Below are positions 9,180-31,189 of a stretch of 32,000 nt of DNA, one piece after another; within the stretch, counting starts at the first letter, position 1, and every line of letters begins with the position of its first letter. Both the position numbers and the translations under genes were made by a program. Source of the DNA: Planctopirus limnophila DSM 3776 (GTDB taxonomy: Bacteria > Planctomycetota > Planctomycetia > Planctomycetales > Planctomycetaceae); NCBI RefSeq assembly GCF_000092105.1, contig NC_014148.1:870001-902000 (forward strand), given 5' to 3'. Under the pieces are notes generated by a model. The model ran no database searches, had not been told where the DNA came from, and saw only the letters and a program-made list of their open reading frames with translations.

Positions 9180-9216
9180 GGTAGGGTGCAAGAAGTTCCG
9201 ACGGATTGCACCATCT
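9180..9216 (+). repeat. REP-like element, copy A: GTAG + GGTGCA-N16-TGCACC + ATCTT
   Basis: GTAGGGTGCAAGAAGTTCCGACGGATTGCACCATCTT. It matches 26823-26859 at 32 of 37 positions in the same orientation, and the 6-bp arms GGTGCA/TGCACC are exact reverse complements. Confidence 0.6.
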
Positions 9217-9356
9217 TCTATAGGCATCAAACTCAGATATTGGACACTCTACTTGCATCCCAGATCTGTATTTGACACACAAGGCAACATCCCAGCTTCA
9301 TCCCAAGCCATGCCGGCTTTGCACAACATGCTCTACCACAGCCCTCTCCAACAAGC

Positions 9357-13157: not shown

Positions 13158-13782
13158 TTCATCAATCGAGTCGAATCACTCTTCACCAGACCAATTCTTA
13201 GCAGGTATCAACAACCGGCTGAAATGTTGACCTGAAACTTATACCCCACGATTCAAATCTGGCATTCTCGTAAGCTTCGGCTGTTTTCTTTCACCTCTTG
13301 ATGCAAATCGACTGCATTCAGTCTAGTGCGAGTTTCTCGACGGGAGCCTTTAAGAGTGCTCAAGTTTTCAATGATCTCAGATAAATTATATACTTAAAAT
13401 CGTTATTACCGGTCGACACGTTACAATCGATACAAACGACCAATGTCCAACCTGTCGATGATCAACTCGCAAGCTTCATCATTCCCGGTTCCCTGGAGAC
13501 ACATGGCATACGATCAGTCTTCTGTCGGAATGAACTCTTCCAAAGCGAGGGAAAACACTTATTCTTTGCCGTCAAAGTTGGAAGAATCGATACTCTCGTC
13601 GATTCGACTTCGTTCAAATTTCTTGAAGGTGGCATTCGTCATCGGGATGTTTCCAAAACGCAACCTAGGTTCACAATTGTCCCGATCGATCATCCGAAGT
13701 GAGCCCGGGACGTGTGATCACTGTCGCACTCCAGCGGTCAACACCACCAATTCTTCGGACTGGCACCGTGCAGGTAAGTGTC

Positions 13783-16700
13783 ATGCTCGATGCGTTTCAA
13801 TCGGTTTCGCTGTTGTGGGTGATGTGCGCCGCCATTCTCGTCTTCATGATGCAGGGTGGTTTCTGCCTGCTGGAAGCGGGTGTGACCCGCACCAAGAACA
13901 GCATTAACGTCGCGCTGAAAAACCTCACAGACTTTTGCATTTCAGCCATGATCTTCTGGCTGTTTGGCTACGGCATCATGTTCGGCCACTCTGCCTATGG
14001 GTGGATTGGCACTTCTCGCTTCATGCCTGATGAGCAATTCTTCTCCATTGGTAGTACCCCCACAGCGGCCTCGGCCATCGCGTTAGGATTTTTCCTGTTC
14101 CAGATGATGTTCTGCGGAACATCGACCACGATTGTTTCGGGTGCCGTCGCAGAGCGAATTCGCTTCGCCGGGTATCTGGTCCTCACCGTTGTACTTTCCG
14201 GATTGATCTATCCATTGTTTGGTCACTGGGCATGGGGCGGGGCGGATACAGGATCTCCCACCGGTTGGCTGGCAAAACTGGGCTTTGTCGATTTTGCAGG
14301 CTCGACTGTTGTCCACGCCATTGGCGGATGGTTCTCTCTAGCTGCTGTCATCATTATTGGCCCCAGACTGGGACGCTTTGATACCAAAGCTCCTCGCATT
14401 CGTGGACATAACCTCGTTTTGGCAACCTGCGGTGTCATGCTCCTCTGGGTCGGCTGGTTTGGCTTTAATGGCGGCAGCACATTAGCACTCAATTCACAGG
14501 TTCCTCGAATTCTGGTCGCTACCAACCTGGCTGCGATTGCCAGTTGTTTAACAGCTCTCTTTATGGCCTGGTGGATCGAGAAACGTGCCATTGTTGAAAT
14601 GACGCTCAATGGGGCACTGGGCGGGCTCGTGGCCGTGACCGCGTCATGCCACATTATTCCCTTTTGGGGAGCGGTCCTCTTGGGTGTTGGTGCCGGTGTC
14701 ATCTCCGTCGCAGTTACTTATTTACTCGATGATTTCAAGATCGACGATGTCGTCTCTGCAGTTCCTGTTCACGCAGCCTGTGGACTCTTTGGAACCGTCT
14801 TCTGGCCACTCTTTACTCCTGAGCAAAGTTTCCAGCACGGCATGAGTTGCCTGCAGCAGTTTGGTGTGCAGTTGCTGGGCTCCGGGGTCGCGTTTGTCTG
14901 GGCATTTGGTGTCGGTGGAGTCTGTATTTATCTGATTAATAAAGTCATGCCTCTGCGCGTCAGAGCCCGCGACGAAATTGTGGGATTGAACTTTGTCGAA
15001 CATGGGGCTTCCAACGACCTGGCCGAACTAATGAGTACCATGAACGATCATCGGACCCGCGGTGATTTCAGCCAGCATGTCTTTGTTGAGCCCCATAGCG
15101 AAGTCGGCCAGATCGCTGCAGAATACAACCGCGTGCTGGATCGCGTGACGGATGAAATTCGTGCCCGCGAAGAAACCACCCACGCCTTGAAATCGGCCGA
15201 AGAAAAATATCGCAGTATCTTTGAAAACGCCGTCGAAGGGATCTTTCAAACCTCGCCGAGCGGGATCTACATGAATGTGAATCCTGCTCTGGCCAAGATC
15301 TATGGCTACGATTCCCCCAACGATCTGATTGGCTCAATCGGCGACATTTCGAAAGATCTTTATGTCGATCCACAAAGACGGGCTGAGTTCTGCCGTCTGA
15401 TTGAAACGGAAGGGGCCGTCAAAGGTTTTGTCTCGGAAGTTTACAGGCGTGATGGCAGTACCATCTGGATCTCCGAAAACGCTCATCCGGTGAAGAATGC
15501 CGCTGGTCGCATTTTATACTATGAAGGCTCTGTAGAGGATGTCACCGAGGTTCGCCGAGCTGAACAATGGCGAGCAGAAAAAGCCGAAGCTGAAGCTGCT
15601 AACGAAGCTAAAAGCCAATTTCTCGCCAAGATGAGTCACGAAATCCGGACTCCGCTCAACGGTGTCATTGGCATGCTCGACTTGCTTAAAGCCACCTCGC
15701 TCGATGATCGCCAGAAACGCTACGTGACCATCTGTCGTTCATCGGCCGATACCTTGCTGGGTTTAATAAACGATATTCTCGATCTCTCCAAAATCGAGGC
15801 CGGTCGTATGGAACTGGCTCTTGTTGATTTTGATCTGCACCAACTGGTCGAAGATATCTCCGAGATGTTTGTCCATCGTGCGGAAGGTAAAGGAGTCGAG
15901 CTGGCCTGCCATATTGCTCCCGATGTCCCTCAACGAATTGAAGGGGATCCAGAACGGTTGCGGCAGATCCTGGTCAATCTTGTCGGTAACGCTCTCAAGT
16001 TTACTTCTGTCGGCTATGTCCTCATCAAGGTTTCGATGGCTCAATCCCCGACTGGGGAGCATCGCTTGCAGATCCATGTCAAAGATACAGGGATCGGAAT
16101 TTCGCCAGCTCAGCAACAAAAACTCTTCCAGCCCTTTACCCAGGCAGATGTCACCACATCTCGTCGATTTGGCGGTACCGGGTTGGGGCTATCGATCTGC
16201 CGTCAGTTGGCCGACCTGATGCAGGGATCGATACAGATAGAGAGTGCCGTCGGTGTCGGTACGACATTTACTGTCGACCTGCCGTTAACCTCTGCTGAGG
16301 TTTCAAAAGTCGCTCCAGAGCATGAGCCATTAGCCGGACTGCGTGTTCTGCTGGTCGATGATAACGAAATTAACCTCGAAATTCTCAGCGAACATCTGGT
16401 TGCCTGGGGTTGCCGGGTCAGTAAATGCCTCTCGGCAGAGACCGCATTATCGCTATTAAGTAAACCAGCCACCACAGGTCCAGCTTTCTCGATTGCCATT
16501 ATCGATAAGCAAATGCCAGGCTTTGATGGTGAAATGCTCGCTGGCAGCATTCGCAAGTACGCACACCTGGATTCCCTGCGCATTCTCATGCTCACCAGTG
16601 TCGACTTCAGTGATGCAGCAGTGGATGGGATCCCTCCGTGGGATGCGTGGATCAATAAACCTGTCCGGGCAGGACGTCTGCTCGAGATGTTGCAGAAACT

Positions 16701-17751
16701 GCGCGACTACGTTCCTTTAGAAAATGCTCGTGAATTGTCTGCACAACAGCCACTATCAGAAACCAAAACACCTTCTGCGAGAATTTTGATTGCCGACGAT
16801 AATGAGGTCAACCTGATTGTGACCACCGAGCTGGTCAGGTCATTAGGCTTCGATACAGAGACAGCCGCTGATGGGTCAATTGTCCTGGAGAAACTGAAAT
16901 CGCAAACTTATGACCTGATACTTATGGATTGCCAGATGCCGACCCTCGACGGCTTCGAAACCACACGGAAGATTCGAGAAATCGAAAAACAAGCTCAGAA
17001 CGGAGAGCATATTCCGATTGTTGCTTTAACGGCGAACGCTATTCAGGGAGATAACGATCGCTGCCGACAGGCTGGCATGGATGGCTATCTCACAAAGCCG
17101 ATTGACCATGCTCAATTGAGTAACACGTTGTTGCAAATACTGACAACTCATCAGCCGGTTCCACAGCAAGAACACAAAGTTGATATTGAGTTATCCAGCA
17201 ACAAGAATCTGGTAACACAATTGTCCCCGGTCTCTGTAGGAACAATTCCACAAGTAGTGACGGCTATTGAAACGATTTCACCTGCAAAAAATATTACGAA
17301 GTCGATTCTTTCTTCAGTCTCTAGTGATTCCATTGCGATACCAGAGGCCATCATTAATGTTCATCAGCAATCGATCGAAGCGGTGCAATTTCAGGAATTG
17401 GTCAATCGCTGCCGGAGAGATCACGAGTTCGCCCTGAGAGTTCTTCAAAAATTCGCCACCCGGGTACTGGCCGATAAGGCACAATTCGCACTCGCTTTAG
17501 CTGCTGAAGATTCGAAAACTCTCAAATCGTTATCTCACTCCTTGAAAGGTGCCGCAGCTAACGTTGGTGCGACTCGATTGGCCCAATTGGCTGGAAATCT
17601 CGAAGAGCAGATCAGTGACGAGTCTTTAACTGTTCACGAACAGAATCTGAATGACTTATTCAATGAAATTGATACAGTCAGAGAATGGATCGATCGAAAG
17701 CTTCTGGCGGAGCATGCTCCAGCCAGTGCTGCTGGATCGGTGGCTCTCTAG
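13783..17751 (+). CDS. Ammonium-transporter (Amt) domain fused to a PAS / HisKA-HATPase / REC / REC / Hpt hybrid sensor kinase
   Basis: The ORF-track frame is 13699-17751; I prefer the ATG at 13783 (MLDAFQSVSLLWVMCAAILVFMMQGGFCLLEAG, a typical Amt N-terminus). Amt signatures include FVDFAGSTVVHAIGGW (His codon 14314-14316) and VPVHAACGLFG (His 14770-14772). The PAS region spans about 15200-15560. The H-box SHEIRTPLNG has its His at 15637-15639. HATPase N, G1 and G2 boxes are present (NLVGNALKFT, DTGIGIS, GGTGLGLSI). REC1 Asp is at 16504-16506 (IAIIDKQMPGFDG) and REC2 Asp at 16927-16929 (LILMDCQMPTLDG). The Hpt His is at 17536-17538 (SHSLKGAAANVGA). Confidence 0.9.
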   Translation: MLDAFQSVSLLWVMCAAILVFMMQGGFCLLEAGVTRTKNSINVALKNLTDFCISAMIFWLFGYGIMFGHSAYGWIGTSRFMPDEQFFSIGSTPTAASAIALGFFLFQMMFCGTSTTIVSGAVAERIRFAGYLVLTVVLSGLIYPLFGHWAWGGADTGSPTGWLAKLGFVDFAGSTVVHAIGGWFSLAAVIIIGPRLGRFDTKAPRIRGHNLVLATCGVMLLWVGWFGFNGGSTLALNSQVPRILVATNLAAIASCLTALFMAWWIEKRAIVEMTLNGALGGLVAVTASCHIIPFWGAVLLGVGAGVISVAVTYLLDDFKIDDVVSAVPVHAACGLFGTVFWPLFTPEQSFQHGMSCLQQFGVQLLGSGVAFVWAFGVGGVCIYLINKVMPLRVRARDEIVGLNFVEHGASNDLAELMSTMNDHRTRGDFSQHVFVEPHSEVGQIAAEYNRVLDRVTDEIRAREETTHALKSAEEKYRSIFENAVEGIFQTSPSGIYMNVNPALAKIYGYDSPNDLIGSIGDISKDLYVDPQRRAEFCRLIETEGAVKGFVSEVYRRDGSTIWISENAHPVKNAAGRILYYEGSVEDVTEVRRAEQWRAEKAEAEAANEAKSQFLAKMSHEIRTPLNGVIGMLDLLKATSLDDRQKRYVTICRSSADTLLGLINDILDLSKIEAGRMELALVDFDLHQLVEDISEMFVHRAEGKGVELACHIAPDVPQRIEGDPERLRQILVNLVGNALKFTSVGYVLIKVSMAQSPTGEHRLQIHVKDTGIGISPAQQQKLFQPFTQADVTTSRRFGGTGLGLSICRQLADLMQGSIQIESAVGVGTTFTVDLPLTSAEVSKVAPEHEPLAGLRVLLVDDNEINLEILSEHLVAWGCRVSKCLSAETALSLLSKPATTGPAFSIAIIDKQMPGFDGEMLAGSIRKYAHLDSLRILMLTSVDFSDAAVDGIPPWDAWINKPVRAGRLLEMLQKLRDYVPLENARELSAQQPLSETKTPSARILIADDNEVNLIVTTELVRSLGFDTETAADGSIVLEKLKSQTYDLILMDCQMPTLDGFETTRKIREIEKQAQNGEHIPIVALTANAIQGDNDRCRQAGMDGYLTKPIDHAQLSNTLLQILTTHQPVPQQEHKVDIELSSNKNLVTQLSPVSVGTIPQVVTAIETISPAKNITKSILSSVSSDSIAIPEAIINVHQQSIEAVQFQELVNRCRRDHEFALRVLQKFATRVLADKAQFALALAAEDSKTLKSLSHSLKGAAANVGATRLAQLAGNLEEQISDESLTVHEQNLNDLFNEIDTVREWIDRKLLAEHAPASAAGSVAL

Positions 17752-22535: not shown

Positions 22536-25079
22536 ATGACAGGCATGAATCCCGCACCTATCCTGATCCGCAATCTTTACGTGCACAATCTGCAGGGAGT
22601 CGATATCGAGATTCCCCTGCAGCAGCTCGTCGTGGTCAGCGGGGTGAGTGGTTCAGGGAAGTCGAGCCTGGCCTTCGATACACTGTTTGCAGAAGGTCAG
22701 CGGAGTTACATCGAAACTTTTTCACTGGCCACGAGGCAACTTCTCGAAAAGTTCGAGCGTCCTGCCGTCGATCGACTGGAAAACATTCCGCCGACAATCG
22801 CCCTGCGACAACTCGCCCAGACAGGTGACAAATCTCGAAGCCAGTATGTCGATGCTCAAAACTTCGGCTCTGTGACCAGCATTGCCGACCATTTGAAGCT
22901 GCTGTTTCTCCGCTGTGGCAGCGTGATCTGTCCCACTTGCCAGCGTAAAATCACTTCATCCTCTCCGGCAGAGGTGGCCCAGCGGCTTGCAAAACTCCCA
23001 CAGGGAACACGAATTCTGGTGACCATGAAGGTACCGGAAAAATCGGCTCTTCAATTATCTTTCGACTCACAAACTGCAGGTCCCAGCCGGAATTCAACGA
23101 AGCGTACCGCACCGCCTCGCTTACCAACAGAAAAAGCACATCAGGCTCTCATCGAAGAACTCCGTCAGCAAGGTTTTCGCCGAGGTCTCTTTCAAACAGA
23201 AGCTCTCTCCGAAAACTTTGTCACTCACGAATTTTCTAAGGATCTGCCACAGCATTTCGAACTTGTCGCCGTCATTGTTGATCGCTTAATCGCAGGCTCA
23301 CAAACCATCGAACGCATGCTCGAAAGCTGTGAAACAGCCATGCGATACGGGGCCGGCGCGATCGGTCTTTGGGCACAAACTCCTCTACCGGAAAGCGCCT
23401 ATCTTGCCTGCACAATTGATGGCCAGGCGTGGTACCGGCACGAGTTCAACACACGTTACCGATGCGAACCTTGCCAGCGAGATTTCCCGAAGCCACAACT
23501 GGCACTGCTCGATGATGAGCCCCCCCCACAAACCCCACCAGCCTCACAAACCATAGCAAGCACCGTCTCACCCTCGACGATCTTCCAGCAGTCATTGAGC
23601 CTGGGGAATGTCAGTTGGCAAAATGCTGGCAAACAATCGCTGGATCAACTCGAGTATTTGCTTCAGCAAGCCCGGAAGGAATACTTCGCTTCTGGGAGTT
23701 TCGAAGAGACTTCGAACCTGCGAGATCAATCCTTGTGGGAGCATGTTCTCCAGAGAATTGAATGGTGCCGCAGGCTCGGATTGGATCACCTGCCGCTTTT
23801 CCGAAGCGTCAGTGGTCTTTCGGGAACTGAATATCGTCGGGCCAGGCTCATCCCGCTCCTCTCAGCGGGTCTGGTCAATACGCTCTATATTCTGGATGAG
23901 CCACTCGCCGGACTGGATGACCAGACAGCGTGCATCGTGCTCGACGCCATCCAGAGCCTCTTAAAGAGTGGCAACAGCCTGCTCATGGTCGAGCACCATC
24001 CCCTGGCGAAAAAACGAGCCAACTTTGTGATCGAAATGGGCCCGGGAGCTGGCAGTGAAGGAGGCCGCATCGTTTACGCTGGTTCTTCTCCTGCGCCAAC
24101 TCAGCCATGGCCGGAACATGATCAGGTCAAACTCACTGCACCAAGGGTCTTGCGGGAACCCGCCGGCTGGATCGATCCCGGCCCGATCAACCTCAAAAAT
24201 CTCCAGCAATTTCAATGGAAGCTTCCACTGGGTCTGCTCTGCGTCGTCACGGGTCCGCATGGATCTGGGAAATCAGCGGCACTCATCGATGCTCTTCAGC
24301 CGACTTCCCATGGAGACACACTTCCTGCACTCGCTGGCCATCCCCTCTGGATGGTCGATTCGTCACCATTGAAAGGACAGCCTAGCCAGATGCTGATCGG
24401 CTTGCTCGATCTTTTCGGAGAAGTTCGAGCACTCTTCGGCCAGACACCAGAAGCCAAAAACCGGCAATTGACAGCCAGGTTCTTCAGCCTGCATGTTGCC
24501 CAGAGTGGACGCTGCTCTCAATGCAAGGGGACTGGCCAGATCTCTGCCGATCTCACCTTTTTCAATGAAGCCTCGATGACCTGCCCGAACTGTCACGGGA
24601 AGCGTTACCGCCGCGATGCTCTGGAGATTCGCTACCGGGGGCTGAATATTGCGGAAGCACTTGATCTGACTGTCGCGGAAGCCCTCACCTACTTCAAAGG
24701 GCACCACAAACTTCAAAGCATGCTCACGACGCTCTCTCGCACAGGATTGAGATACCTGCGCCTGGGGCAAACTTTGAAGTCACTCTCCGGCGGAGAACGA
24801 CAACGCATCAAACTGGCCCTGGCACTTGGTCAGCCCGTCGAAAATGGCATTTTTATCTGCGATGAGCCCACCATGGGCCTGCACGATCAGGATGCTCACC
24901 AATTAATGCATGCCTTTCTGGAACTGGTCAGCATTGGCCACACCGTCTGGCTGGCCGACATCCATCCCGTGGCATTATCCTGGGCAGACTGGGTGATTCA
25001 GCTCGGCTCGCAAACTCCGCTGACGTTGCCAGAAGTCTTGTTTTCTGGTCCAGCGACCACATTCCGTCAGAGCGAATAG
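22536..25079 (+). CDS. UvrA-like ABC ATPase (short, divergent paralogue of excinuclease ABC subunit A)
   Basis: 847 aa. The N-terminus NLQGVDIEIPLQQLVVVSGVSGSGKSSLAFDTLFAEGQRSYIETFS closely parallels UvrA. A second Walker A (VTGPHGSGKSA) is present. The C-terminal zinc module is CSQCKGTGQ...CPNCHGKRYRRDALEIRYRG, the second signature is LSGGERQRIKLA, and Walker B is IFICDEPTMGLH. See the findings for degenerate features. Confidence 0.85.
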   Translation: MTGMNPAPILIRNLYVHNLQGVDIEIPLQQLVVVSGVSGSGKSSLAFDTLFAEGQRSYIETFSLATRQLLEKFERPAVDRLENIPPTIALRQLAQTGDKSRSQYVDAQNFGSVTSIADHLKLLFLRCGSVICPTCQRKITSSSPAEVAQRLAKLPQGTRILVTMKVPEKSALQLSFDSQTAGPSRNSTKRTAPPRLPTEKAHQALIEELRQQGFRRGLFQTEALSENFVTHEFSKDLPQHFELVAVIVDRLIAGSQTIERMLESCETAMRYGAGAIGLWAQTPLPESAYLACTIDGQAWYRHEFNTRYRCEPCQRDFPKPQLALLDDEPPPQTPPASQTIASTVSPSTIFQQSLSLGNVSWQNAGKQSLDQLEYLLQQARKEYFASGSFEETSNLRDQSLWEHVLQRIEWCRRLGLDHLPLFRSVSGLSGTEYRRARLIPLLSAGLVNTLYILDEPLAGLDDQTACIVLDAIQSLLKSGNSLLMVEHHPLAKKRANFVIEMGPGAGSEGGRIVYAGSSPAPTQPWPEHDQVKLTAPRVLREPAGWIDPGPINLKNLQQFQWKLPLGLLCVVTGPHGSGKSAALIDALQPTSHGDTLPALAGHPLWMVDSSPLKGQPSQMLIGLLDLFGEVRALFGQTPEAKNRQLTARFFSLHVAQSGRCSQCKGTGQISADLTFFNEASMTCPNCHGKRYRRDALEIRYRGLNIAEALDLTVAEALTYFKGHHKLQSMLTTLSRTGLRYLRLGQTLKSLSGGERQRIKLALALGQPVENGIFICDEPTMGLHDQDAHQLMHAFLELVSIGHTVWLADIHPVALSWADWVIQLGSQTPLTLPEVLFSGPATTFRQSE

Positions 25080-25225: not shown

Positions 25226-25241
25226 TGGTATAGCGTTTGCT
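25226..25241 (+). promoter_or_regulatory. Sigma-54 (-24/-12) type promoter candidate upstream of glnA
   Basis: TGGTAT-AGCGT-TTGCT, with GG at 25227-25228 and GC at 25239-25240. This has exactly the consensus spacing of TGGCAC-N5-TTGCW and lies 62 nt upstream of the glnA ATG. It resembles the classical enterobacterial glnAp2 arrangement. No enhancer site was identified. Confidence 0.4.
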
Positions 25242-25302
25242 TAACTATGGAGAACTGATTTCTGTTACCTCCTTGCGCCAGGAGTTGCCTTTCGTGACTG
25301 AT

Positions 25303-26715
<1,413 letters not shown>

Positions 26716-26757
26716 TTGGCGGACTATTCTCATGACCGAACATAGCCGGGTAGCCGG

Positions 26758-26789
26758 GTAGGGTGGGTTAAGGCTCTGCGCAACCCACC
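26758..26789 (+). repeat. GTAG-prefixed hairpin 1 (REP-like): GTAG GGTGGGTT-N12-AACCCACC
   Basis: GTAG is at 26758-26761. The 8-bp perfect arms are 26762-26769 and 26782-26789. It is preceded by the tandem 8-mers TAGCCGGG TAGCCGGG (26743-26758) and lies 43 nt after the glnA stop. Confidence 0.45.
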
Positions 26790-26822
26790 AACTTAATTGA
26801 CCTCCCTCGGTGGCCCAGCCAT

Positions 26823-26859
26823 GTAGGGTGCATGAAGTTCTTACGCAATGCACCATCTT
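26823..26859 (+). repeat. REP-like element, copy B: GTAG + GGTGCA-N16-TGCACC + ATCTT
   Basis: GTAGGGTGCATGAAGTTCTTACGCAATGCACCATCTT, with 32 of 37 positions identical to 9180-9216 in the same orientation. Confidence 0.6.
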
Positions 26860-26876
26860 GCCGCTGTCGTTATCAA

Positions 26877-26898
26877 GTAGGGCAGGCTCCCGCCTGCC
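26877..26898 (+). repeat. GTAG-prefixed hairpin 3 (REP-like; could double as a glnA terminator): GTAG GGCAGGC-TCCC-GCCTGCC
   Basis: GTAG is at 26877-26880. The 7-bp GC-rich arms are 26881-26887 and 26892-26898 with a 4-nt loop, followed by GTGTTCTTGG, which is moderately T-rich. Confidence 0.45.
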
Positions 26899-27078
26899 GT
26901 GTTCTTGGTAACCACAAGGATCAAACCAGCCCGTTGGGTTGAGTGAAAAGTGTGTGGTTTCTCCAATTTGCTGACGGGATTTGGAGTTTTTCGAGCGCAA
27001 GGCCTCCCAGTACGTTGTTCAAAGGTTTTGCTTTCATTCCCTACTGACAAATGCCAAATACGGCTTACACTATTGGGC

Positions 27079-30000
27079 ATGGGCACTCTCGACGAAATTC
27101 AGCGACTAAATGATGGCCAGTTTCATCGGCTTGGTGACGACCTGCTACGCAGGAGCGAATCCCGATACCGGCGTCTTCGAACCCACGGTTTGAACGAACG
27201 TGGGGAGAGCATCAAAGGCCAGCCAGATTCCTATGTTGGAGAGACCGCTGCGACTTGTAGCGTGGCGGTTTGTTACACAGTGCAACGATCTGGTTGGTGG
27301 AACAAAGTGGTGCAAGACGTCGGGGAGGCTGTTGCGGCTTGTCCGATGGCGACCGGGGTGGTTGTAGTCATTCCGCACAATGCCGACCGAGATGGCCCCC
27401 AGGACAAGACAATTGATTGGCTTTCAGAGGCACGTGCGGCAGCTGGCAAAGCAATCCTCCGGGTGATCGACGGGCGGGAAATTAGCCAACTGCTCGATAC
27501 GGATCATCAAGACCTGAGACACAACCATCTAGGCATCCCTTACTCCCGCCTCTCTGGGTCTAGTATCCTTGCCAGCTGTCGAATGGCCTCGCAGACTGCA
27601 ATCGATTACATAAGAGGGAGCGGCAGGTATGACCCAGAAAGGTATTCTCACCGGAGTTCCGACAGAGAGCTATATCGGGTGTGGCAGTCGGCGTACCGGT
27701 ACAATGACAGCAGCGACCGGCGTGTTGCCCCTATCCGATTGATCGCACTCGTGAACGACTCTGGGGTTGGGAAGACCAGTCTGGTTTGTGAGCTCACCCG
27801 CACACTTGGGGCGGTTCTTCCGGTTCTGCTCATTCAGGCCCGAGATATCGAGTTCGGTCCGGAGGACAAACTCGTTGCCGCCGTGATAAACTATGCCCAA
27901 GGGTTCCTGGATCCATCTACCCGTGTGATCGAAGAGGCGGCTTTGTCCAAGCTGCTGTCCGGTTCAGTGCCCCTGACGGTAGTGCTGGATGGATTAGATG
28001 AAGCACACAATCCAGAGGCCGTACGCAAAGCAATCACCTTCTGGTTGAGGTCGAAATTGTGCCAGGTCAGCATTTTGGTGGTGACCTCACGTCGGGAGTT
28101 TTGGCAAACCTGTGTGGACTCGTCTTGGGTCAAATGGATGCCCACCTCGAACCTCGACGACCGCTCGCCGGTGAAAGTCGCTGAACGCTTGCAAGTCGAA
28201 AAGAGTGATCCGGCTGCGGGCCTTCCGCTTCCTGACCGCTTCAACGAAGGAGAGCTTGAGGCGGCATGGCTGCGGGCTGGCCGGACTCGTTCGGAGTTGG
28301 CTATCTTGCCAGCCGATGCGAGAGAAGAATTACGTCATCCATTCACGCTCCGAGTGTTTCTTGACCTTCAGATGCAAGAAGGTCTTTCGCCGAAGAAGGT
28401 AACGAGGGCGGCCCTGTTGGAGTGTTGGTTGAATCACCGCCTCGATGCAGAGACGCTTACAAGTGAGCGGATCACCCGCAGCCACTTTCAACAAGCGCTT
28501 CGAATGGTGGCGAGCCGGATTGCCGAAACCAGTCATTGCTCCGTATCCGTGGACGAACTATCGGAAGTGCCTCGTTTTGACTCCTCACATCCGCCGGGTC
28601 CAATCCTTCAACGGATGATTGAAGCGGGCATCCTGGAAAGCCTGCCAAACCAATCCGATCGCATCAGATTTACGGTTGAAACAGTCCAGGACTTCTACCG
28701 GGCTGAAGCGGATGTCGAGGACATCAAGAGCAACCCTGCACATATAGCGGAAGCCTTCTCGCAGCTTCCGTTTACGACGGCGTACTCCAGGCTTGTGCGA
28801 ATAGGGTCCCGGCTCATCGGCGAGGATGTTCGTCACGAGTTCATCCAGCGGCTACTGGAAGCGTCTCCAATAAAAGCTGCCATTGTTGTGCGAGCACATC
28901 CGGATTGCTACACGGCAGAAGTCAGGACAAGAATCGCAGGTGAACTCGGTGCTCAAATCACAGACCGTCATCGTGTTCGGGCTGCGATGGCGATAACTCT
29001 GCTCGGAGAGTTGAACTGTCAAGAAGCTATCGACGTACTTGGGAAGCATCTTCTCCCTCCTGCTGACCTTCACAACGACCTGAAGTCCCTCGGCGCGACA
29101 GCATTTACAAAACTTAGCTATGCTCCCGCCGCGGCTTTTGTATACCGCTGGCAGTGGTTCGGCACGCGCCAAGGCAACGACACTTACTACTTTAAGGATC
29201 TCTTGGCATTCATTCGTGATGCGACATTTGAATTCCGGCTTGCCCTGGCGGATCAGTCCGTCCTACAACTCTCAAGTGCCACTGGTACGAAGGAACATGT
29301 CAATGCAGTGACAGTGCTGGCCTATCTAGGCGATTGCCGTCTTGTGGATCACTTGGCTTCCCGACTCACCCAGAACGTACTGCTCGAGCACTACGAGAAC
29401 CACGCCCTGATTGCCCTCGGATCGGATGCAGCTGGAAGGCTCTTCGCCCAGTCTGTGAAAGCGATTGGGGACCGTCTCGCTCCGCTGCCAGACGATCATG
29501 CTAATAACGATGCTCGGAACGAATTGATCGGACTGGTCCACTTCGTGGTTAGTGACGTGCGCTACCTTTTAACGCCTGCTTTTGAGCCGCATATTAAACA
29601 ACTCATCGAAAATGCCAATCCAGACGTATCATGGATTGCTATTCACTTAGCAAAACGAGCTCATGCCGTATCGCTGCTGTACCCTGCCGCAATAGCCGCT
29701 TCCAAGCGGAGTGGCTGGATTGAGTTGGATCACGGTGAGGAACGAAGTTGCGTGAGTGCCGACGAGTGGTTGAGATGGTGGCGGCAATCAACCGACGTTG
29801 CAATTCGCCAAAAATTACTGAGACTGCTTCCCCGTTACCCGAATGCAGAGATCGAAGAGATCCTTCTAGATTGCCTCGACTTGCCTGAACTGTGTGCATC
29901 AACGGCGACACGGCTTGGAGAATACGGGGCGATCCGCTCGGCACCTCGTCTACGGGAGATTCTTTCCGAAGCGGTCACCACCGATGACCAATCGGCCAAG

Positions 30001-30906
30001 TCGTCAGCCGCTCATGCGTTAGGTGATTTGAGGGACGTGGCTGCAGTGCCGCTTCTGGAGAAGCTTGCCACTGAGCATTCTGACGAATGGGTCGGGCTGC
30101 AAGCGATTGCGAGCCTCGGCCTGATTGGGAACTCAGAAGCCGAGTCCGCCCTAGGCCGTCTTCATCAACTTCAAAAAGGGGACGGCATTGAGGACCACAT
30201 ATTTGAAGCCCTCCTCTGTTGTGGCTCTCCCACGGCAGTCGCAGAGGTGATCAAGCATGCAAGTTCACGACTGGACGGCTCTGAGTGGCTGTGTGAACGA
30301 CTTGGCCGCCTTTCCTGGATGCGTGGGTGGCGATGTGGCGAGTACTACACACATATTTACACAGCTGAGTTAGTTGACTACCTGAAATCTCACTGCAAAC
30401 TGGGCTCCCCTGAAAAGAACTGGGACATTGGGGATGCCTTTCGTCAAATCGATAGCCCGGAAGTTCGGACACTGCTACAGAAGTGGGGGAATCGCCGTGG
30501 ATCGCCTGAAGATGCGGTTGTGCGGGAAAGCGACCAGCGGCGGCTTTCGGATATGTGCTATTGGGAACTTCGAAATCGTGGCGACATATCGGCCATTAGT
30601 TACACACTCGATGAATGTGCTGATGACAGGGACGATATTTACGTCGCACGTGCCGCTCTCCTTCTTCAAACTTTCCCCACCGCTGCAGTTGCCAATCAAC
30701 TTCAGTCACGGCTCAACGTGGCGACAACGATATCCGAGACGCTGAGAATGCTCGCCTTGCTCGGTCGGTTTGGACAGCAGGCTGACGCTGAACTCGCAGC
30801 TAAGTTTGTGAATCATGCTAACGACTTGGTGGCGAATGTGGCATGTGAAACCATGCTGCGTCTGAGCGATCCATTGCTCGTACCGGGTCGCTGGCGAGAG
30901 ATGTAG
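27079..30906 (+). CDS. STAND-class NACHT-type P-loop NTPase with an N-terminal restriction-endonuclease-like module and C-terminal HEAT-like repeats
   Basis: The track ORF is 26950-30906; I prefer the ATG at 27079 (MGTLDEIQRL...), giving ~1275 aa. Walker A is LVNDSGVGKTSLVCEL (Lys codon 27772-27774). The NACHT-style Walker B is LTVVLDGLDEA (27988-28002). Then comes ILVVTSRREFW, followed by a winged-helix-like stretch. From about nt 28990 to the end there are repeated HEAT/PBS-lyase-like units (for example AAMAITLLGELNCQEAIDVLGKHL, NAVTVLAYLGDCRLVDHLASRL, SSAAHALGDLRDVAAVPLLEKLATEHSDEWVGLQAIASLGLIGNSEAESAL). Confidence 0.85.
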   Translation: MGTLDEIQRLNDGQFHRLGDDLLRRSESRYRRLRTHGLNERGESIKGQPDSYVGETAATCSVAVCYTVQRSGWWNKVVQDVGEAVAACPMATGVVVVIPHNADRDGPQDKTIDWLSEARAAAGKAILRVIDGREISQLLDTDHQDLRHNHLGIPYSRLSGSSILASCRMASQTAIDYIRGSGRYDPERYSHRSSDRELYRVWQSAYRYNDSSDRRVAPIRLIALVNDSGVGKTSLVCELTRTLGAVLPVLLIQARDIEFGPEDKLVAAVINYAQGFLDPSTRVIEEAALSKLLSGSVPLTVVLDGLDEAHNPEAVRKAITFWLRSKLCQVSILVVTSRREFWQTCVDSSWVKWMPTSNLDDRSPVKVAERLQVEKSDPAAGLPLPDRFNEGELEAAWLRAGRTRSELAILPADAREELRHPFTLRVFLDLQMQEGLSPKKVTRAALLECWLNHRLDAETLTSERITRSHFQQALRMVASRIAETSHCSVSVDELSEVPRFDSSHPPGPILQRMIEAGILESLPNQSDRIRFTVETVQDFYRAEADVEDIKSNPAHIAEAFSQLPFTTAYSRLVRIGSRLIGEDVRHEFIQRLLEASPIKAAIVVRAHPDCYTAEVRTRIAGELGAQITDRHRVRAAMAITLLGELNCQEAIDVLGKHLLPPADLHNDLKSLGATAFTKLSYAPAAAFVYRWQWFGTRQGNDTYYFKDLLAFIRDATFEFRLALADQSVLQLSSATGTKEHVNAVTVLAYLGDCRLVDHLASRLTQNVLLEHYENHALIALGSDAAGRLFAQSVKAIGDRLAPLPDDHANNDARNELIGLVHFVVSDVRYLLTPAFEPHIKQLIENANPDVSWIAIHLAKRAHAVSLLYPAAIAASKRSGWIELDHGEERSCVSADEWLRWWRQSTDVAIRQKLLRLLPRYPNAEIEEILLDCLDLPELCASTATRLGEYGAIRSAPRLREILSEAVTTDDQSAKSSAAHALGDLRDVAAVPLLEKLATEHSDEWVGLQAIASLGLIGNSEAESALGRLHQLQKGDGIEDHIFEALLCCGSPTAVAEVIKHASSRLDGSEWLCERLGRLSWMRGWRCGEYYTHIYTAELVDYLKSHCKLGSPEKNWDIGDAFRQIDSPEVRTLLQKWGNRRGSPEDAVVRESDQRRLSDMCYWELRNRGDISAISYTLDECADDRDDIYVARAALLLQTFPTAAVANQLQSRLNVATTISETLRMLALLGRFGQQADAELAAKFVNHANDLVANVACETMLRLSDPLLVPGRWREM

Positions 30907-31106
30907 TACTCGAACCGACTATGCGACTGAAACGTTGATTTCTCAAGTTCAGGACCACTGTGGGCTGGGAGGCATGCATAGAAATTAAGGCTCTCAATCA
31001 TCTGTGCAATGCTTGCGGCTCCGCACAAGCATGCTGGACTACCCTTTAACCCGCTCTGGTTTAAAGGACGCGTATAGGTCACTGGTCGCTTGACGGACTG
31101 CACCAT

Positions 31107-31122
31107 TTGATCGATCGATCAA
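31107..31122. repeat. 16-bp perfect palindrome TTGATCGATCGATCAA
   Basis: Read directly from the sequence. It is self-complementary and contains three GATC and two ATCGAT sites. It lies in the convergent spacer between the NACHT gene and the DUF11 gene. Confidence 0.9.
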
Positions 31123-31148
31123 AACAACAGCCGGGATCTCCTGTTGTT
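31123..31148 (-). terminator. Hairpin downstream of the DUF11 gene (candidate intrinsic terminator)
   Basis: AACAACAG (31123-31130) and CTGTTGTT (31141-31148) form an 8-bp perfect stem with a 10-nt loop. Read on the minus strand, the stem runs into TTTTG. An overlapping alternative pairing is CCGGGA (31131-31136) with TCCCGG (31150-31155), followed on the plus strand by CCGTTTTAATTT. Confidence 0.35.
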
Positions 31149-31189
31149 CTCCCGGCCGTTTTAATTTCTGGCGATAGCAGTCGGCTCGT

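What the first reader, a model, noticed from the sequence alone, without database searches (positions are those of the whole stretch)
26716..31189. Lone NACHT/STAND NTPase with a HEAT-repeat C-terminus between glnA and a convergent DUF11 gene: candidate single-gene immune sensor
**Seen in sequence.** One ~1275-aa ORF has three parts:
- a ~160-aa N-terminal module;
- a P-loop NTPase with NACHT-style Walker A (GVGKTS) and Walker B (VVLDGLDE);
- about 640 aa of HEAT-like helical repeats.

It has no partner genes. It sits directly after housekeeping glnA, is separated from both neighbours by unusually structured spacers (364 nt and 283 nt) that carry REP-like elements, and converges on the next gene.

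**Established knowledge.** The layout of effector, then STAND NTPase, then repeat sensor is that of the Avs/AVAST and bNACHT antiphage proteins and of eukaryotic NLRs. Those described families mostly use TPR, WD40 or LRR-type sensors.

**Inference.** This looks like an NLR-like defence or stress sensor with a HEAT-type sensor arm and an atypical effector, possibly acquired horizontally. It is the most system-like accessory element in the window.
Basis: partly seen in the sequence, partly recalled or inferred. Interest (0 to 1): 0.75.

Follow-up and report, generated by a model that had tools for sequence, protein, structure and literature searches.

The report
Lone NLR-like immune sensor gene
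A single 1275-residue gene of Planctopirus limnophila encodes an NLR-type switch protein: a restriction-enzyme-like domain, a NACHT ATPase and a long HEAT-repeat arm. It most likely acts as a one-gene anti-phage sensor and is an uncharacterised member of a well-known class.

Summary
**Observation: confirmed.** Window 27079-30906 (+) is one intact 1275-aa ORF (GenBank ADG66531.1, P. limnophila DSM 3776). It lies between glnA and a convergent DUF11 gene.

**What it is**
- The NTPase carries the NACHT signatures: GVGKTS, and VVLDGLDE, which fits D[GAS]hDE.
- About 720 C-terminal residues form a HEAT/ARM-type alpha-solenoid.
- The N-terminal 160 aa match no Pfam or PDB sequence. They fold (pLDDT 89.5) into a restriction-endonuclease-like domain. 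The same domain is also fused to NB-ARC-like, nSTAND3 and TPR proteins, so it behaves as a shuffled effector module.

**Why defence is the best reading**
- About 90 collinear homologues are scattered thinly over Planctomycetota, Verrucomicrobiota, Acidobacteriota and Gammaproteobacteria.
- They share no conserved neighbour.
- In at least 9 of 22 loci they sit beside known defence or mobile genes: Hma three times, TIR, SIR2, MmeI/SNF2, type III R-M, PD-Lambda-4 and transposases.
- A 92%-identical MAG copy shares only the gene plus 111 nt upstream.

**Verdict:** a single-gene Avs/bNACHT-like sensor with a nuclease-type effector, and a new member of a known kind. Function is inferred, not shown.

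**Caveats**
- The nuclease motif is non-canonical.
- This copy has Gly at the family's otherwise conserved Glu93.

The parts
26755..26859 (+). Two REP-like imperfect palindromes in the glnA-NACHT spacer: a degenerate copy at 26755-26794 and a good copy at 26823-26859. They are a dispersed genomic repeat, not part of the gene cassette.
   Evidence: A third copy lies at 9181-9217; the 37-nt pattern has 2 matches against 0 expected. Contigs from a close relative (97% nucleotide identity over the shared region) break inside this repeat region.
26968..27078 (+). Upstream 111 nt that travel with the gene, probably its own promoter and 5' leader. A sigma-70-like site lies at 27044-27071.
   Evidence: Nucleotide homology to the 92%-identical MAG copy starts at 26968 and ends at 30905. 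The promoter-like hexamers CTGACA-16-TACACT are a consensus match only.
27079..30906 (+). Complete ORF of 1275 aa plus stop codon. GenBank ADG66531.1, annotated 'PBS lyase HEAT domain protein repeat-containing protein'.
27079..27558 (+). N-terminal effector module, residues 1-160, with a restriction-endonuclease-like alpha/beta fold. Invariant residues are G47-Q-P-D50-S51, K76 and D80. This copy has G93 where the family has Glu.
   Evidence: AF2 pLDDT 89.5. Foldseek gives EcoT38I (prob 0.99, E 6.5e-3), Avs4, YaeQ and SduA, plus phage 'restriction endonuclease' models. No Pfam or PDB sequence match. Conservation.
27559..27723 (+). Helical linker, residues 161-215. The conserved motif Q144-D-L-R147...L-G-I-P, just upstream at the end of the N-terminal module, is shared by all carriers of that module. 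R183, Y189, R192, D195 and W202 are invariant.
27724..28113 (+). NACHT nucleotide-binding domain, residues 216-345. Walker A is G229-S234 (27763-27780). Walker B with the NACHT signature is D304-G-L-D-E308 (27988-28002). The sensor-1-like motif TSRR has R338.
   Evidence: Pfam NACHT scores 21-25 bits here, below the 26.7 cut-off, but 31 of 31 relatives hit it, best E 2.3e-8. Motifs.
28114..28734 (+). Helical and winged-helix domains that follow the NTPase, residues 346-552. They include the invariant H420-P421-F-T423 (GxP-like motif) and the motif R-F-x-x-E-x-V-Q-D-F.
   Evidence: AF2 model. Foldseek hits to NLRP9, NLRP2 and Cdc6/Orc1. Alignment.
28735..30903 (+). C-terminal HEAT/ARM-like alpha-solenoid, residues 553-1275: the presumed sensor arm. 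The Pfam HEAT_2 match covers residues 963-1027 (29965-30159).
   Evidence: Foldseek hits CAND1, PP2A-A, importin-beta and SF3B1. This is the least conserved part, at 41% mean identity.
31124..31165 (.). GC-rich hairpin (GCCGGGA...TCCCGGC) flanked by T-runs on both strands. It lies between the two convergent genes and is a likely bidirectional terminator.
   Evidence: Read directly from the sequence. The terminator scan did not list it because the loop exceeds 8 nt.

Best explanation
The gene encodes a self-contained NLR-like immune receptor of the bacterial NACHT/Avs type.

**Proposed mechanism**
1. In the resting state the protein is a monomer held inactive by its bound nucleotide.
2. The C-terminal HEAT/ARM solenoid binds a trigger, either a conserved phage protein or a host factor perturbed by infection.
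3. This releases the NACHT module, which binds ATP and oligomerises.
4. Oligomerisation brings the N-terminal restriction-endonuclease-fold domains together.
5. These domains then cut DNA, destroying the invader's genome or aborting the infected cell.

The gene carries its own upstream region. It moves between genomes as a one-gene cassette that tends to land in defence islands.

**Shown here**
- the three-part architecture
- the NACHT motifs
- the solenoid
- the modular reuse of the N-terminal domain
- the patchy distribution
- the defence-island neighbourhoods of homologues

**Inferred**
- trigger binding
- oligomerisation
- nuclease activity
- phage defence
For: **Architecture**
- Walker A, and a Walker B that fits the NACHT-defining D[GAS]hDE (definition from bioRxiv 10.1101/2022.07.19.500537).
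- All 31 diverse relatives hit Pfam NACHT and HEAT_2.
- The AF2 model of residues 165-1275 has pLDDT 86.8. Its best PDB match is SeAvs4 (E 3e-7), followed by NLRP9, NLRP2 and HEAT solenoids.

**Effector**
- The N-terminal model (pLDDT 89.5) is closest to EcoT38I, Avs4, YaeQ and the Shedu nuclease SduA, and to phage REase and endonuclease I models.
- A classic 'G-x-P-D' strand motif has an invariant Asp50. In bNACHT25 the PD-(D/E)XK active-site mutation D48A abolishes defence (PMC12169576).
- A profile of the domain finds only 172 proteins among 1.84 billion. These include fusions to NB-ARC-like, nSTAND3, other NACHT and TPR proteins. Such reuse is how effector modules of immune STANDs behave.

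**Accessory and mobile character**
- Only 21 loci were found in 185,579 species genomes, spread over at least 5 phyla. A Gemmata copy is 76% identical to one in a Gammaproteobacteria MAG.
- Neighbours differ in every locus.
- Homology to the 92%-identical MAG copy covers only 26968-30905.
- None of 26 related glnA contigs carries the gene.
- Its codon-usage correlation with the rest of the window is the lowest among the long genes, 0.71 against 0.80-0.90.

**Defence-island context of homologues**
- SNF2 + MmeI-type methyltransferase + Schlafen/AlbA + nSTAND5
- TIR_2 + HsdM
- HmaB/HmaC directly upstream in three lineages
- SIR2_2, HNH and a second NACHT gene on a conjugative element
- transposase and PIN
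- PD-Lambda-4_A and a type III methyltransferase
- AbiEii/AbiEi, DrmB and integrases
Against: - There is no experimental evidence of defence for any member.
- No PADLOC (2023) defence model matches the NTPase or the effector. The only hit is a weak WGR_XIII match inside the HEAT region.
- The REase assignment rests on fold only, with weak statistics: best E 6.5e-3 and TM 0.40. Profile searches of the PDB and Pfam find nothing.
- The canonical (D/E)xK strand motif is absent. Sister families have E-Y-T, and this family has C/Q/A at that position.
- The window copy has Gly93 where 75 of 77 relatives examined have Glu, so its effector may be impaired.
- In P. limnophila itself every other gene in the window is housekeeping.
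- GC and GC3 are host-like.
- No copies were found on plasmids, phages or IMG/VR contigs.
- The protein keeps a nearly fixed length and is collinear down to 31% identity. That is more uniform than many fast-evolving sensors.
Confidence: 0.68

Rival explanations
1. The protein is a non-immune STAND signalling or scaffold protein. The NACHT switch and HEAT arm would sense an endogenous cue, for example a metabolic or envelope state. The N-terminal domain would be a binding or regulatory module rather than a nuclease.
For: - Defence and non-defence STAND clades are interspersed in the phylogeny (PMC13581612).
- In the window the gene sits among housekeeping genes next to the nitrogen genes amtB-HK and glnA.
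- In Gemmata and one metagenome it follows recO and fabF.
- Length and collinearity are strongly conserved.
- The canonical REase strand motif is missing.
Against: - No neighbour or pathway is conserved across loci.
- The distribution is extremely sparse and spans several phyla.
- At least 9 of 22 loci carry recognised defence or mobile genes.
- The N-terminal domain is swapped among different STAND clades like an effector.
- There is no DNA-binding HTH or other regulatory output domain.
Confidence: 0.14
2. The family is an NLR-like sensor, but its N-terminal domain is a catalytically dead REase-fold adaptor that oligomerises or recruits something else. Alternatively, this particular P. limnophila copy is a decaying, inactive allele.
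For: - The beta-3 Glu of sister families (E-Y-T) is replaced by C/Q/A throughout this family.
- The window copy alone, apart from one other G and one Q, has lost Glu93.
- Inactive effector domains are annotated among bacterial NACHT proteins (figure legend of bioRxiv 10.1101/2022.07.19.500537).
- Some homologous loci translate with many in-frame stops: L023, L025 and L028.
Against: - D50, K76 and D80 are invariant in this family. D50 and D80 stay invariant, and K76 is largely retained, in the wider domain superfamily.
- The N-terminal module is the most conserved part of the protein, at 62% mean identity against 41% for the arm. That argues for a selected activity.
- The window ORF is full length and intact.
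- The stops in MAG loci may be long-read assembly errors.
Confidence: 0.13
3. The gene is an accessory component of a multi-gene Hma-type (helicase-methylase-ATPase) restriction-like system. The P. limnophila copy would then be an orphan separated from its partners.
For: HmaB (DUF1156 methylase) and HmaC (DUF499 ATPase) lie immediately upstream, on the same strand, with gaps of 80-150 nt. This is seen in three divergent lineages: L008, L019 and L028.
Against: - Only 3 of 22 loci show the linkage.
- A copy 82% identical to the L019 copy (L018) has no large methylase- or ATPase-sized ORFs upstream.
- The other loci have unrelated neighbours.
- There are no Hma genes in the 27 kb upstream of the window gene.
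- Co-location of independent systems in defence islands is common.
Confidence: 0.05

Closest known systems
bNACHT25/bNACHT32 (bacterial NACHT clade 6; Kibby et al. 2023; PMC12169576)
   Same: - Single-gene system.
- N-terminal PD-(D/E)XK-type nuclease effector whose essential Asp sits near residue 48, compared with Asp50 here.
- Central NACHT module with D[GAS]hDE.
- Helical C-terminal region.
   Different: - bNACHT25 has an NCH1 C-terminal domain and senses phage through host DnaJ. Here the C-terminus is a HEAT/ARM solenoid of about 720 aa.
- The strand motif here lacks the canonical (D/E)xK.
- Hosts are Planctomycetota, Verrucomicrobiota and related phyla, not Enterobacteria.
Avs4 (SeAvs4, PDB 8dgf; Gao et al. 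2022)
   Same: - It is the best structural match to the NTPase-plus-arm model (E 3e-7).
- It is also among the top matches to the N-terminal model (prob 0.90).
- Same order of parts: nuclease, then STAND NTPase, then alpha-helical repeat sensor.
- Single gene.
   Different: - The global TM-score is only about 0.2.
- The Avs4 NTPase is not of the NACHT clade, and its sensor is TPR-like and binds phage portal protein.
- No PADLOC AVAST/Avs model matches this protein.
- The trigger here is unknown.
Defence-associated STAND families Avs7-Avs21 and the roughly 90 sensor structural clusters of Lee et al. 2026 (PMC13581612)
   Same: The same conceptual class: a large C-terminal alpha-repeat sensor, a STAND NTPase and an N-terminal effector. 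Classification as defence-associated rests on genomic context and effector type.
   Different: - Membership in any named family could not be checked, because the supplementary tables are not held.
- That paper describes sensors as mostly TPR-like and does not discuss HEAT sensors.
Eukaryotic NLRs (NLRP9, NLRP2, NLRC4)
   Same: The NACHT fold with its helical and winged-helix domains gives significant Foldseek hits, and the switch logic is the same.
   Different: - The sensor is LRR in those proteins and HEAT here.
- The effectors are death-fold adaptors there and an enzyme-like domain here.
- The winged-helix His that contacts ADP in NLRC4 appears not to be conserved here. It is V533 in this copy, judged from a by-eye motif alignment.

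Membership tests
NACHT clade of STAND NTPases | Walker A P-loop, GxxxxGK[ST] | tested here: met
   G229-V-G-K232-T-S234. G229, G231, K232 and S234 are invariant in 31 sequences.
NACHT clade of STAND NTPases | Walker B followed by the D[GAS]hDE signature (Koonin & Aravind 2000; Kibby et al.) | tested here: met
   V-V-L-D304-G-L-D307-E308. D304, D307 and E308 are invariant. The definition is quoted.
NACHT clade of STAND NTPases | Match to the Pfam NACHT model (PF05729) above its gathering score | tested here: inconclusive
   The window protein scores 21.2-25.4 bits against a cut-off of 26.7. NACHT is still its best NTPase hit. All 31 relatives match at E<=0.01, best 2.3e-8.
NACHT clade of STAND NTPases | Helical domain plus winged helix C-terminal to the NTPase core | tested here: met
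   The AF2 model shows helices and a beta-hairpin at residues 519-531. Foldseek hits NLRP9, NLRP2 and Cdc6/Orc1.
Avs / AVAST antiviral STANDs (Avs1-5 as modelled in PADLOC 2023) | Sequence match to a family HMM | tested here: not met
   No Avs/AVAST model matched at E<=1. The only hit was WGR_XIII in the HEAT region.
Avs / bNACHT single-gene antiphage sensors (functional class) | Tripartite layout of effector, STAND NTPase and large repeat sensor, in one gene without conserved partners | tested here: met
   Neighbours vary.
Avs / bNACHT single-gene antiphage sensors (functional class) | Enrichment next to known defence systems | tested here: inconclusive
   At least 9 of 22 homologous loci carry defence or mobile genes within 6-10 kb. 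No background control was computed, and the window locus itself has none.
Avs / bNACHT single-gene antiphage sensors (functional class) | Protection against phage, or trigger-dependent toxicity that requires the P-loop and the effector | not testable with these tools
   This needs experiments.
PD-(D/E)XK (restriction-endonuclease-like) nucleases, N-terminal domain | alpha-beta-beta-beta-alpha-beta core fold | tested here: inconclusive
   The model has H12-26, strands 51-53 and 62-66, H73-87 and strand 93-97. REases top both Foldseek libraries, but weakly: E 6.5e-3 with TM 0.40 in the PDB, and E>=0.03 in BFVD.
PD-(D/E)XK (restriction-endonuclease-like) nucleases, N-terminal domain | Catalytic motifs: (P)D on strand 2 and (D/E)xK on strand 3 | tested here: not met
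   P49-D50 is invariant. Strand 3, however, reads C65-Y-T in this family and E-Y-T in sister families, with no Lys at +2. The invariant K76 and D80 lie on the following helix and might substitute. Their positions in space could not be inspected.
PD-(D/E)XK (restriction-endonuclease-like) nucleases, N-terminal domain | Sequence or profile match to a described nuclease family | tested here: not met
   No Pfam hit at E<=10. Profiles A5 and A7 found no PDB nuclease.
HEAT-repeat proteins, C-terminal arm | Pfam HEAT match above cut-off and an alpha-solenoid structure | tested here: met
   HEAT_2 scores 41-44 bits against 27.7. The family profile matches alphaRep and HEAT chains with E down to 7e-47. 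Foldseek hits CAND1, PP2A-A and importin-beta.
Hma (helicase-methylase-ATPase) system | Presence of hmaA, hmaB and hmaC next to the gene | tested here: not met
   They are absent from the window. They are present upstream of homologues in only 3 loci.

The most novel reading that the evidence does not exclude
The N-terminal 160 residues would define a previously undescribed effector-domain superfamily.

- **Fold and active site.** The fold is REase-like, but the active site is rewired. The invariant residues are Asp50 on a strand and Lys76 and Asp80 on the following helix. The strand-3 Glu is lost in this family, and Glu93 may have been recruited in its place.
- **Modular exchange.** The domain is exchanged among NACHT, NB-ARC-like, nSTAND3 and TPR proteins.
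- **Possible Hma link.** The repeated placement of this NACHT-HEAT gene directly behind Hma methylase-ATPase genes would reflect functional coupling. One example is a second-line sensor triggered when phage neutralises Hma, rather than mere island co-residence.
Probability: 0.2. Interest if true: 0.6.

Novelty: new member of a known kind. Interest (0 to 1): 0.4.

Why it matters
**What it would add if confirmed**
- It would extend experimentally grounded NLR-like immunity to Planctomycetota and Verrucomicrobiota, phyla whose phage defence is almost unexplored.
- It would provide a HEAT-solenoid sensor to compare with the TPR, LRR and WD40 sensors studied so far.
- It would add a Pfam-orphan effector domain to the catalogue of immune effectors.

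**Practical points**
- The RefSeq gene model for this protein starts four residues before the P-loop and so hides the effector domain. This kind of annotation error makes such systems invisible to domain-based defence finders.
- P. limnophila can be grown in culture, and, to my knowledge, genetic tools exist for it, so the predictions can be tested directly.

Tried and rejected
1. **Naming the N-terminal domain by sequence.** All of these failed, so only fold evidence remains:
   - Pfam at E<=10
   - NCBIfam
   - PADLOC
   - PDB searches with the single sequence, the family profile and the superfamily profile
2. **Empty-site synteny test: is glnA followed directly by DUF11 where the gene is absent?**
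   - Contigs of the closest relative sampled (97% nt identity over the shared region) end inside the REP-like repeat region downstream of glnA.
   - The 92%-identical MAG contig starts 227 nt before the gene.
   - The 26 metagenomic contigs with related glnA (73-88% aa identity over the aligned stretch) share no other gene with the window.
   - The test could therefore not be made. All that can be said is that the position behind glnA is not conserved.
3. **Looking the protein up in published STAND and NACHT catalogues.** The accession is not in any searchable full text. The supplements of PMC13581612 are not held.
4. **Carriage on plasmids, phages or viral contigs.** None was found.
5. **A structured RNA in the spacers.** There is no Rfam hit and the folding z-scores are unremarkable. 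The idea was rejected.
6. **A foreign-composition island.** GC and GC3 match the host, and only codon-usage correlation is somewhat low. The evidence is weak.
7. **My first REP search pattern had the wrong spacing** and returned only a chance hit. It was replaced by the search.
8. **PD-T4-6 hits near homologues.** These are probably generic Ser/Thr kinases, which are common in Planctomycetes, so I did not count them as defence.


Full report
**1. What is in the sequence**

The longest ORF over the finding runs 26950-30906 from a GTG.
- About 90 full-length homologues all start at a conserved MxTL. This corresponds to ATG 27079 and gives 1275 aa.
- The exact protein is GenBank ADG66531.1 of Planctopirus limnophila DSM 3776, annotated only as a 'PBS lyase HEAT domain protein repeat-containing protein'.
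- Upstream is glnA and downstream is a convergent DUF11 gene. The spacers are 363 nt and 283 nt.
- The rest of the window is housekeeping:
  - an HlyD-type protein, RNase D, PhyH and RecJ
  - a TPR protein and an AmtB-histidine kinase fusion
  - an RR-HD protein, two Mur ligases and a UvrA-like ABC protein

**2. The spacers**

A 37-nt imperfect palindrome at 26823-26859 recurs at 9181-9217, behind recJ. That is 2 matches against 0 expected. A degenerate copy lies at 26755-26794.
- It is a dispersed REP-like genomic repeat. Short-read contigs of a close relative (97% nucleotide identity) break inside it.
- The spacers are not markedly structured, with z-scores of -1.4 and -2.1. They match no Rfam family.
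- A GC-rich hairpin with T-runs on both sides, at about 31124-31165, looks like a bidirectional terminator for the two convergent genes. I read this from the sequence.

**3. The NTPase**

The motifs that define the NACHT clade are present.
- The P-loop is GVGKTS (229-234).
- Walker B is VVLDGLDE (301-308). It fits D[GAS]hDE, the signature that separates NACHT from other STANDs (definition quoted from bioRxiv 10.1101/2022.07.19.500537).
- A TSRR sensor-1-like motif has an invariant R338.
- An invariant H-P-F-T (420-423) sits at the GxP position.

The window protein itself falls just below the Pfam NACHT cut-off, at 21-25 bits against 26.7. All 31 diverse relatives nevertheless hit NACHT, with a best E of 2.3e-8.

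An AlphaFold2 model of residues 165-1275 is confident (pLDDT 86.8).
- Its best PDB match is SeAvs4 (8dgf, E 3e-7).
- NLRP9, NLRP2 and Cdc6/Orc1 follow for the NTPase part.
- CAND1, PP2A-A, importin-beta and SF3B1 match the arm.

**4. The arm**

From about residue 553 the model is an uninterrupted alpha-solenoid.
- Pfam sees HEAT_2 only at 963-1027.
- The family profile matches HEAT/alphaRep chains with E down to 7e-47.
- The arm is the least conserved region, at 41% mean identity. The NTPase core is at 56% and the N-terminal module at 62%. Even so, the arm stays collinear down to 31% overall identity.

**5. The N-terminal module**

Residues 1-160 have no Pfam, NCBIfam, PADLOC or PDB sequence match, even with profiles.

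*Fold.* The AF2 model is confident (pLDDT 89.5), with alternating helices and strands. Foldseek puts the following on top in the PDB:
- restriction endonuclease EcoT38I (prob 0.99, E 6.5e-3, TM 0.40)
- Avs4 (prob 0.90)
- YaeQ
- the Shedu nuclease SduA

In the viral library the top hits include several 'restriction endonuclease' models, endonuclease I and the REase-fold N-domain of Rpb5. Every score is weak, but the hits agree with one another.

*Conserved residues.*
- The G47-Q-P-D50-S51 strand, K76, D80 and R104 are invariant.

*Distribution of the domain.* An exhaustive HMM search with this domain found only 172 proteins among 1.84 billion representatives. They fall into three groups:
- the family itself
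- a sister NACHT-HEAT family of about 1200-1250 aa
- more distant carriers in which the same domain precedes NB-ARC-like, nSTAND3, other NACHT or TPR-only bodies

This modular reuse is what one expects of an effector domain.

*The wider set.*
- D50 and D80 stay invariant, and K76 is largely retained.
- The sister families carry a Glu on strand 3 (E-Y-T). The window's family has C/Q/A there, and instead conserves Glu93 at the start of the next strand.
- The canonical (D/E)xK is therefore not present. If the domain is a nuclease, its active site is rewired.
- The window copy has Gly93, against Glu in 75 of 77 relatives examined.

*Comparison.* In bNACHT25, an N-terminal PD-(D/E)XK effector with its essential Asp at position 48 is required for defence (PMC12169576).

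**6. Distribution and context**

*Distribution.*
- A pattern scan of 185,579 species genomes returned 21 loci. They come from:
  - Planctomycetota (Planctomycetaceae, Isosphaeraceae, Pirellulaceae, Gemmata, Thermoguttaceae)
  - Verrucomicrobiota
  - Acidobacteriota
  - Eisenbacteria
  - Gammaproteobacteria
- The Gemmata algarum copy is 76% identical to one in a Gammaproteobacteria MAG.

*Neighbours.* They differ in every locus examined.

| Locus or homologue | Neighbouring genes |
|---|---|
| P0003 (L002/L003) | SNF2 + MmeI-type methyltransferase + Schlafen/AlbA + HATPase_c_4 + nSTAND5 |
| P0028 (L005/L006) | TIR_2 and HsdM |
| P0049 (L008) | DUF1156 (HmaB) and DUF499 (HmaC) directly upstream |
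| L019, L028 | HmaB/HmaC directly upstream |
| P0086 (L009) | SIR2_2, HNH and a second NACHT gene, beside a type IV secretion cluster |
| P0071 (L010) | transposase and PIN |
| L025 | PD-Lambda-4_A |
| L026 | type III methyltransferase |
| Various of 15 further loci | AbiEii/AbiEi, DrmB, integrases, IstB |
| P0013 (L004), P0063 (L007), window | housekeeping genes: fabF, recO, glnA |

*Cassette boundaries.* Against the 92%-identical MAG copy, nucleotide homology covers only window 26968-30905. That is the gene plus 111 nt upstream, ending at the stop codon.

*Synteny.* None of 26 metagenomic contigs with related glnA carries the gene.

*Composition.* GC and GC3 are host-like. Codon-usage correlation with the other window genes is 0.71, the lowest among the long genes; the others lie at 0.80-0.90.

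*Mobile elements.* No copies were found in the plasmid, phage or IMG/VR collections.

**7. Interpretation**

The evidence fits a one-gene NLR-like immune sensor of the bacterial NACHT/Avs class.
- The HEAT arm would act as sensor.
- NACHT would act as the nucleotide-dependent oligomerisation switch.
- The REase-fold module would act as the effector.

The architecture, motifs, modular effector, patchy distribution and island contexts are shown here. Trigger recognition, oligomerisation, DNA cleavage and defence are inferred by analogy with Avs4 and bNACHT25.

I put this reading at about 0.68. The rivals are:
- a non-immune STAND signalling protein (0.14)
- a sensor whose N-domain is non-catalytic, or a decayed allele (0.13)
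- an Hma accessory (0.05)

**8. Novelty**

Kibby et al. already list REase effectors and HEAT repeats among bacterial NACHT architectures. Lee et al. 2026 catalogue 589 STAND clades, 198 of them defence-associated.

This is therefore a new, uncharacterised member of a known kind. Three aspects are new:
- the Pfam-orphan effector domain with a non-canonical motif
- the planctomycete and verrucomicrobial host range
- the recurrent adjacency to Hma

Interest is moderate, at 0.4.

Noticed in passing
window 27079-27753 (residues 1-225): The RefSeq model of this gene (WP_196349523.1, 1051 aa) starts at Val225, four residues before the P-loop. It therefore omits the whole conserved N-terminal domain and the first strand of the NTPase. 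The GenBank model (ADG66531.1, 1275 aa) agrees with all homologues.
   Followed up: yes
L008 1992-9891; L019 3389-9920; L028 1035-7881: In three divergent lineages the NACHT-HEAT gene lies directly downstream of HmaB (DUF1156 methylase) and HmaC (DUF499 ATPase). It is on the same strand, with gaps of 80-150 nt. This may be cassette co-transfer or functional coupling. A copy 82% identical to the L019 copy (L018) has no large methylase- or ATPase-sized ORFs upstream.
   Followed up: partly
window 27355-27357 (residue 93): This copy has Gly where 75 of 77 relatives examined have Glu. Only P0011 (Gly) and P0079 (Gln) also differ. Glu93 is conserved only in the family that has lost the strand-3 Glu of sister families, which suggests a relocated active-site residue.
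   Followed up: partly
window 28669-28698 (residues 531-540, R-F-T-V-E-T-V-Q-D-F): The winged-helix motif resembles the NACHT 'F-x-H-x-x-x-Q-E-F' motif, but the His is Val533 here. That His contacts ADP in NLRC4, and mutating it hyperactivates bNACHT25. Only 3 of 31 relatives have His at this position. Sister families keep F-x-H. The alignment was made by eye and is not verified structurally.
   Followed up: no
window 9181-9217, 26755-26794, 26823-26859: A dispersed 37-40-nt REP-like imperfect palindrome (GTAGGGTGCA...TGCACCATCTT) sits just after the stop codons of recJ and glnA. Short-read assemblies of a close relative break in this repeat region.
   Followed up: yes
window 13699-17751: One 1350-aa ORF fuses an AmtB ammonium transporter to PAS, HisKA, HATPase, two receiver domains and Hpt. 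It is followed by an RR-HD protein. glnA lies about 7.5 kb downstream, so this may be a nitrogen-sensing neighbourhood.
   Followed up: no
window 22536-25079: An 847-aa UvrA-like double ABC ATPase with a UvrA interaction domain and zinc-finger-like CxxC motifs lies directly upstream of glnA. It is shorter than canonical UvrA, so it may be a UvrA class II paralogue.
   Followed up: no
L009 12667-17952: In one metagenomic locus the homologue converges on a second, unrelated 1761-aa NACHT gene. SIR2_2 and HNH genes lie on one side and a TrbC/VirB3/VirB4 conjugation cluster on the other. This is a defence island on an integrative conjugative element.
   Followed up: no
L023, L025, L028 (homologue coordinates as): Straight translation of these MAG copies gives many in-frame stops although tblastn covers the full length. 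They are either pseudogenes or indel errors of long-read assemblies.
   Followed up: no
window 25237-25293: The longest glnA ORF starts at a TTG and gives 492 aa, but its closest homologues are 473 aa and begin at the internal Met (25294). The true start is probably 25294.
   Followed up: partly
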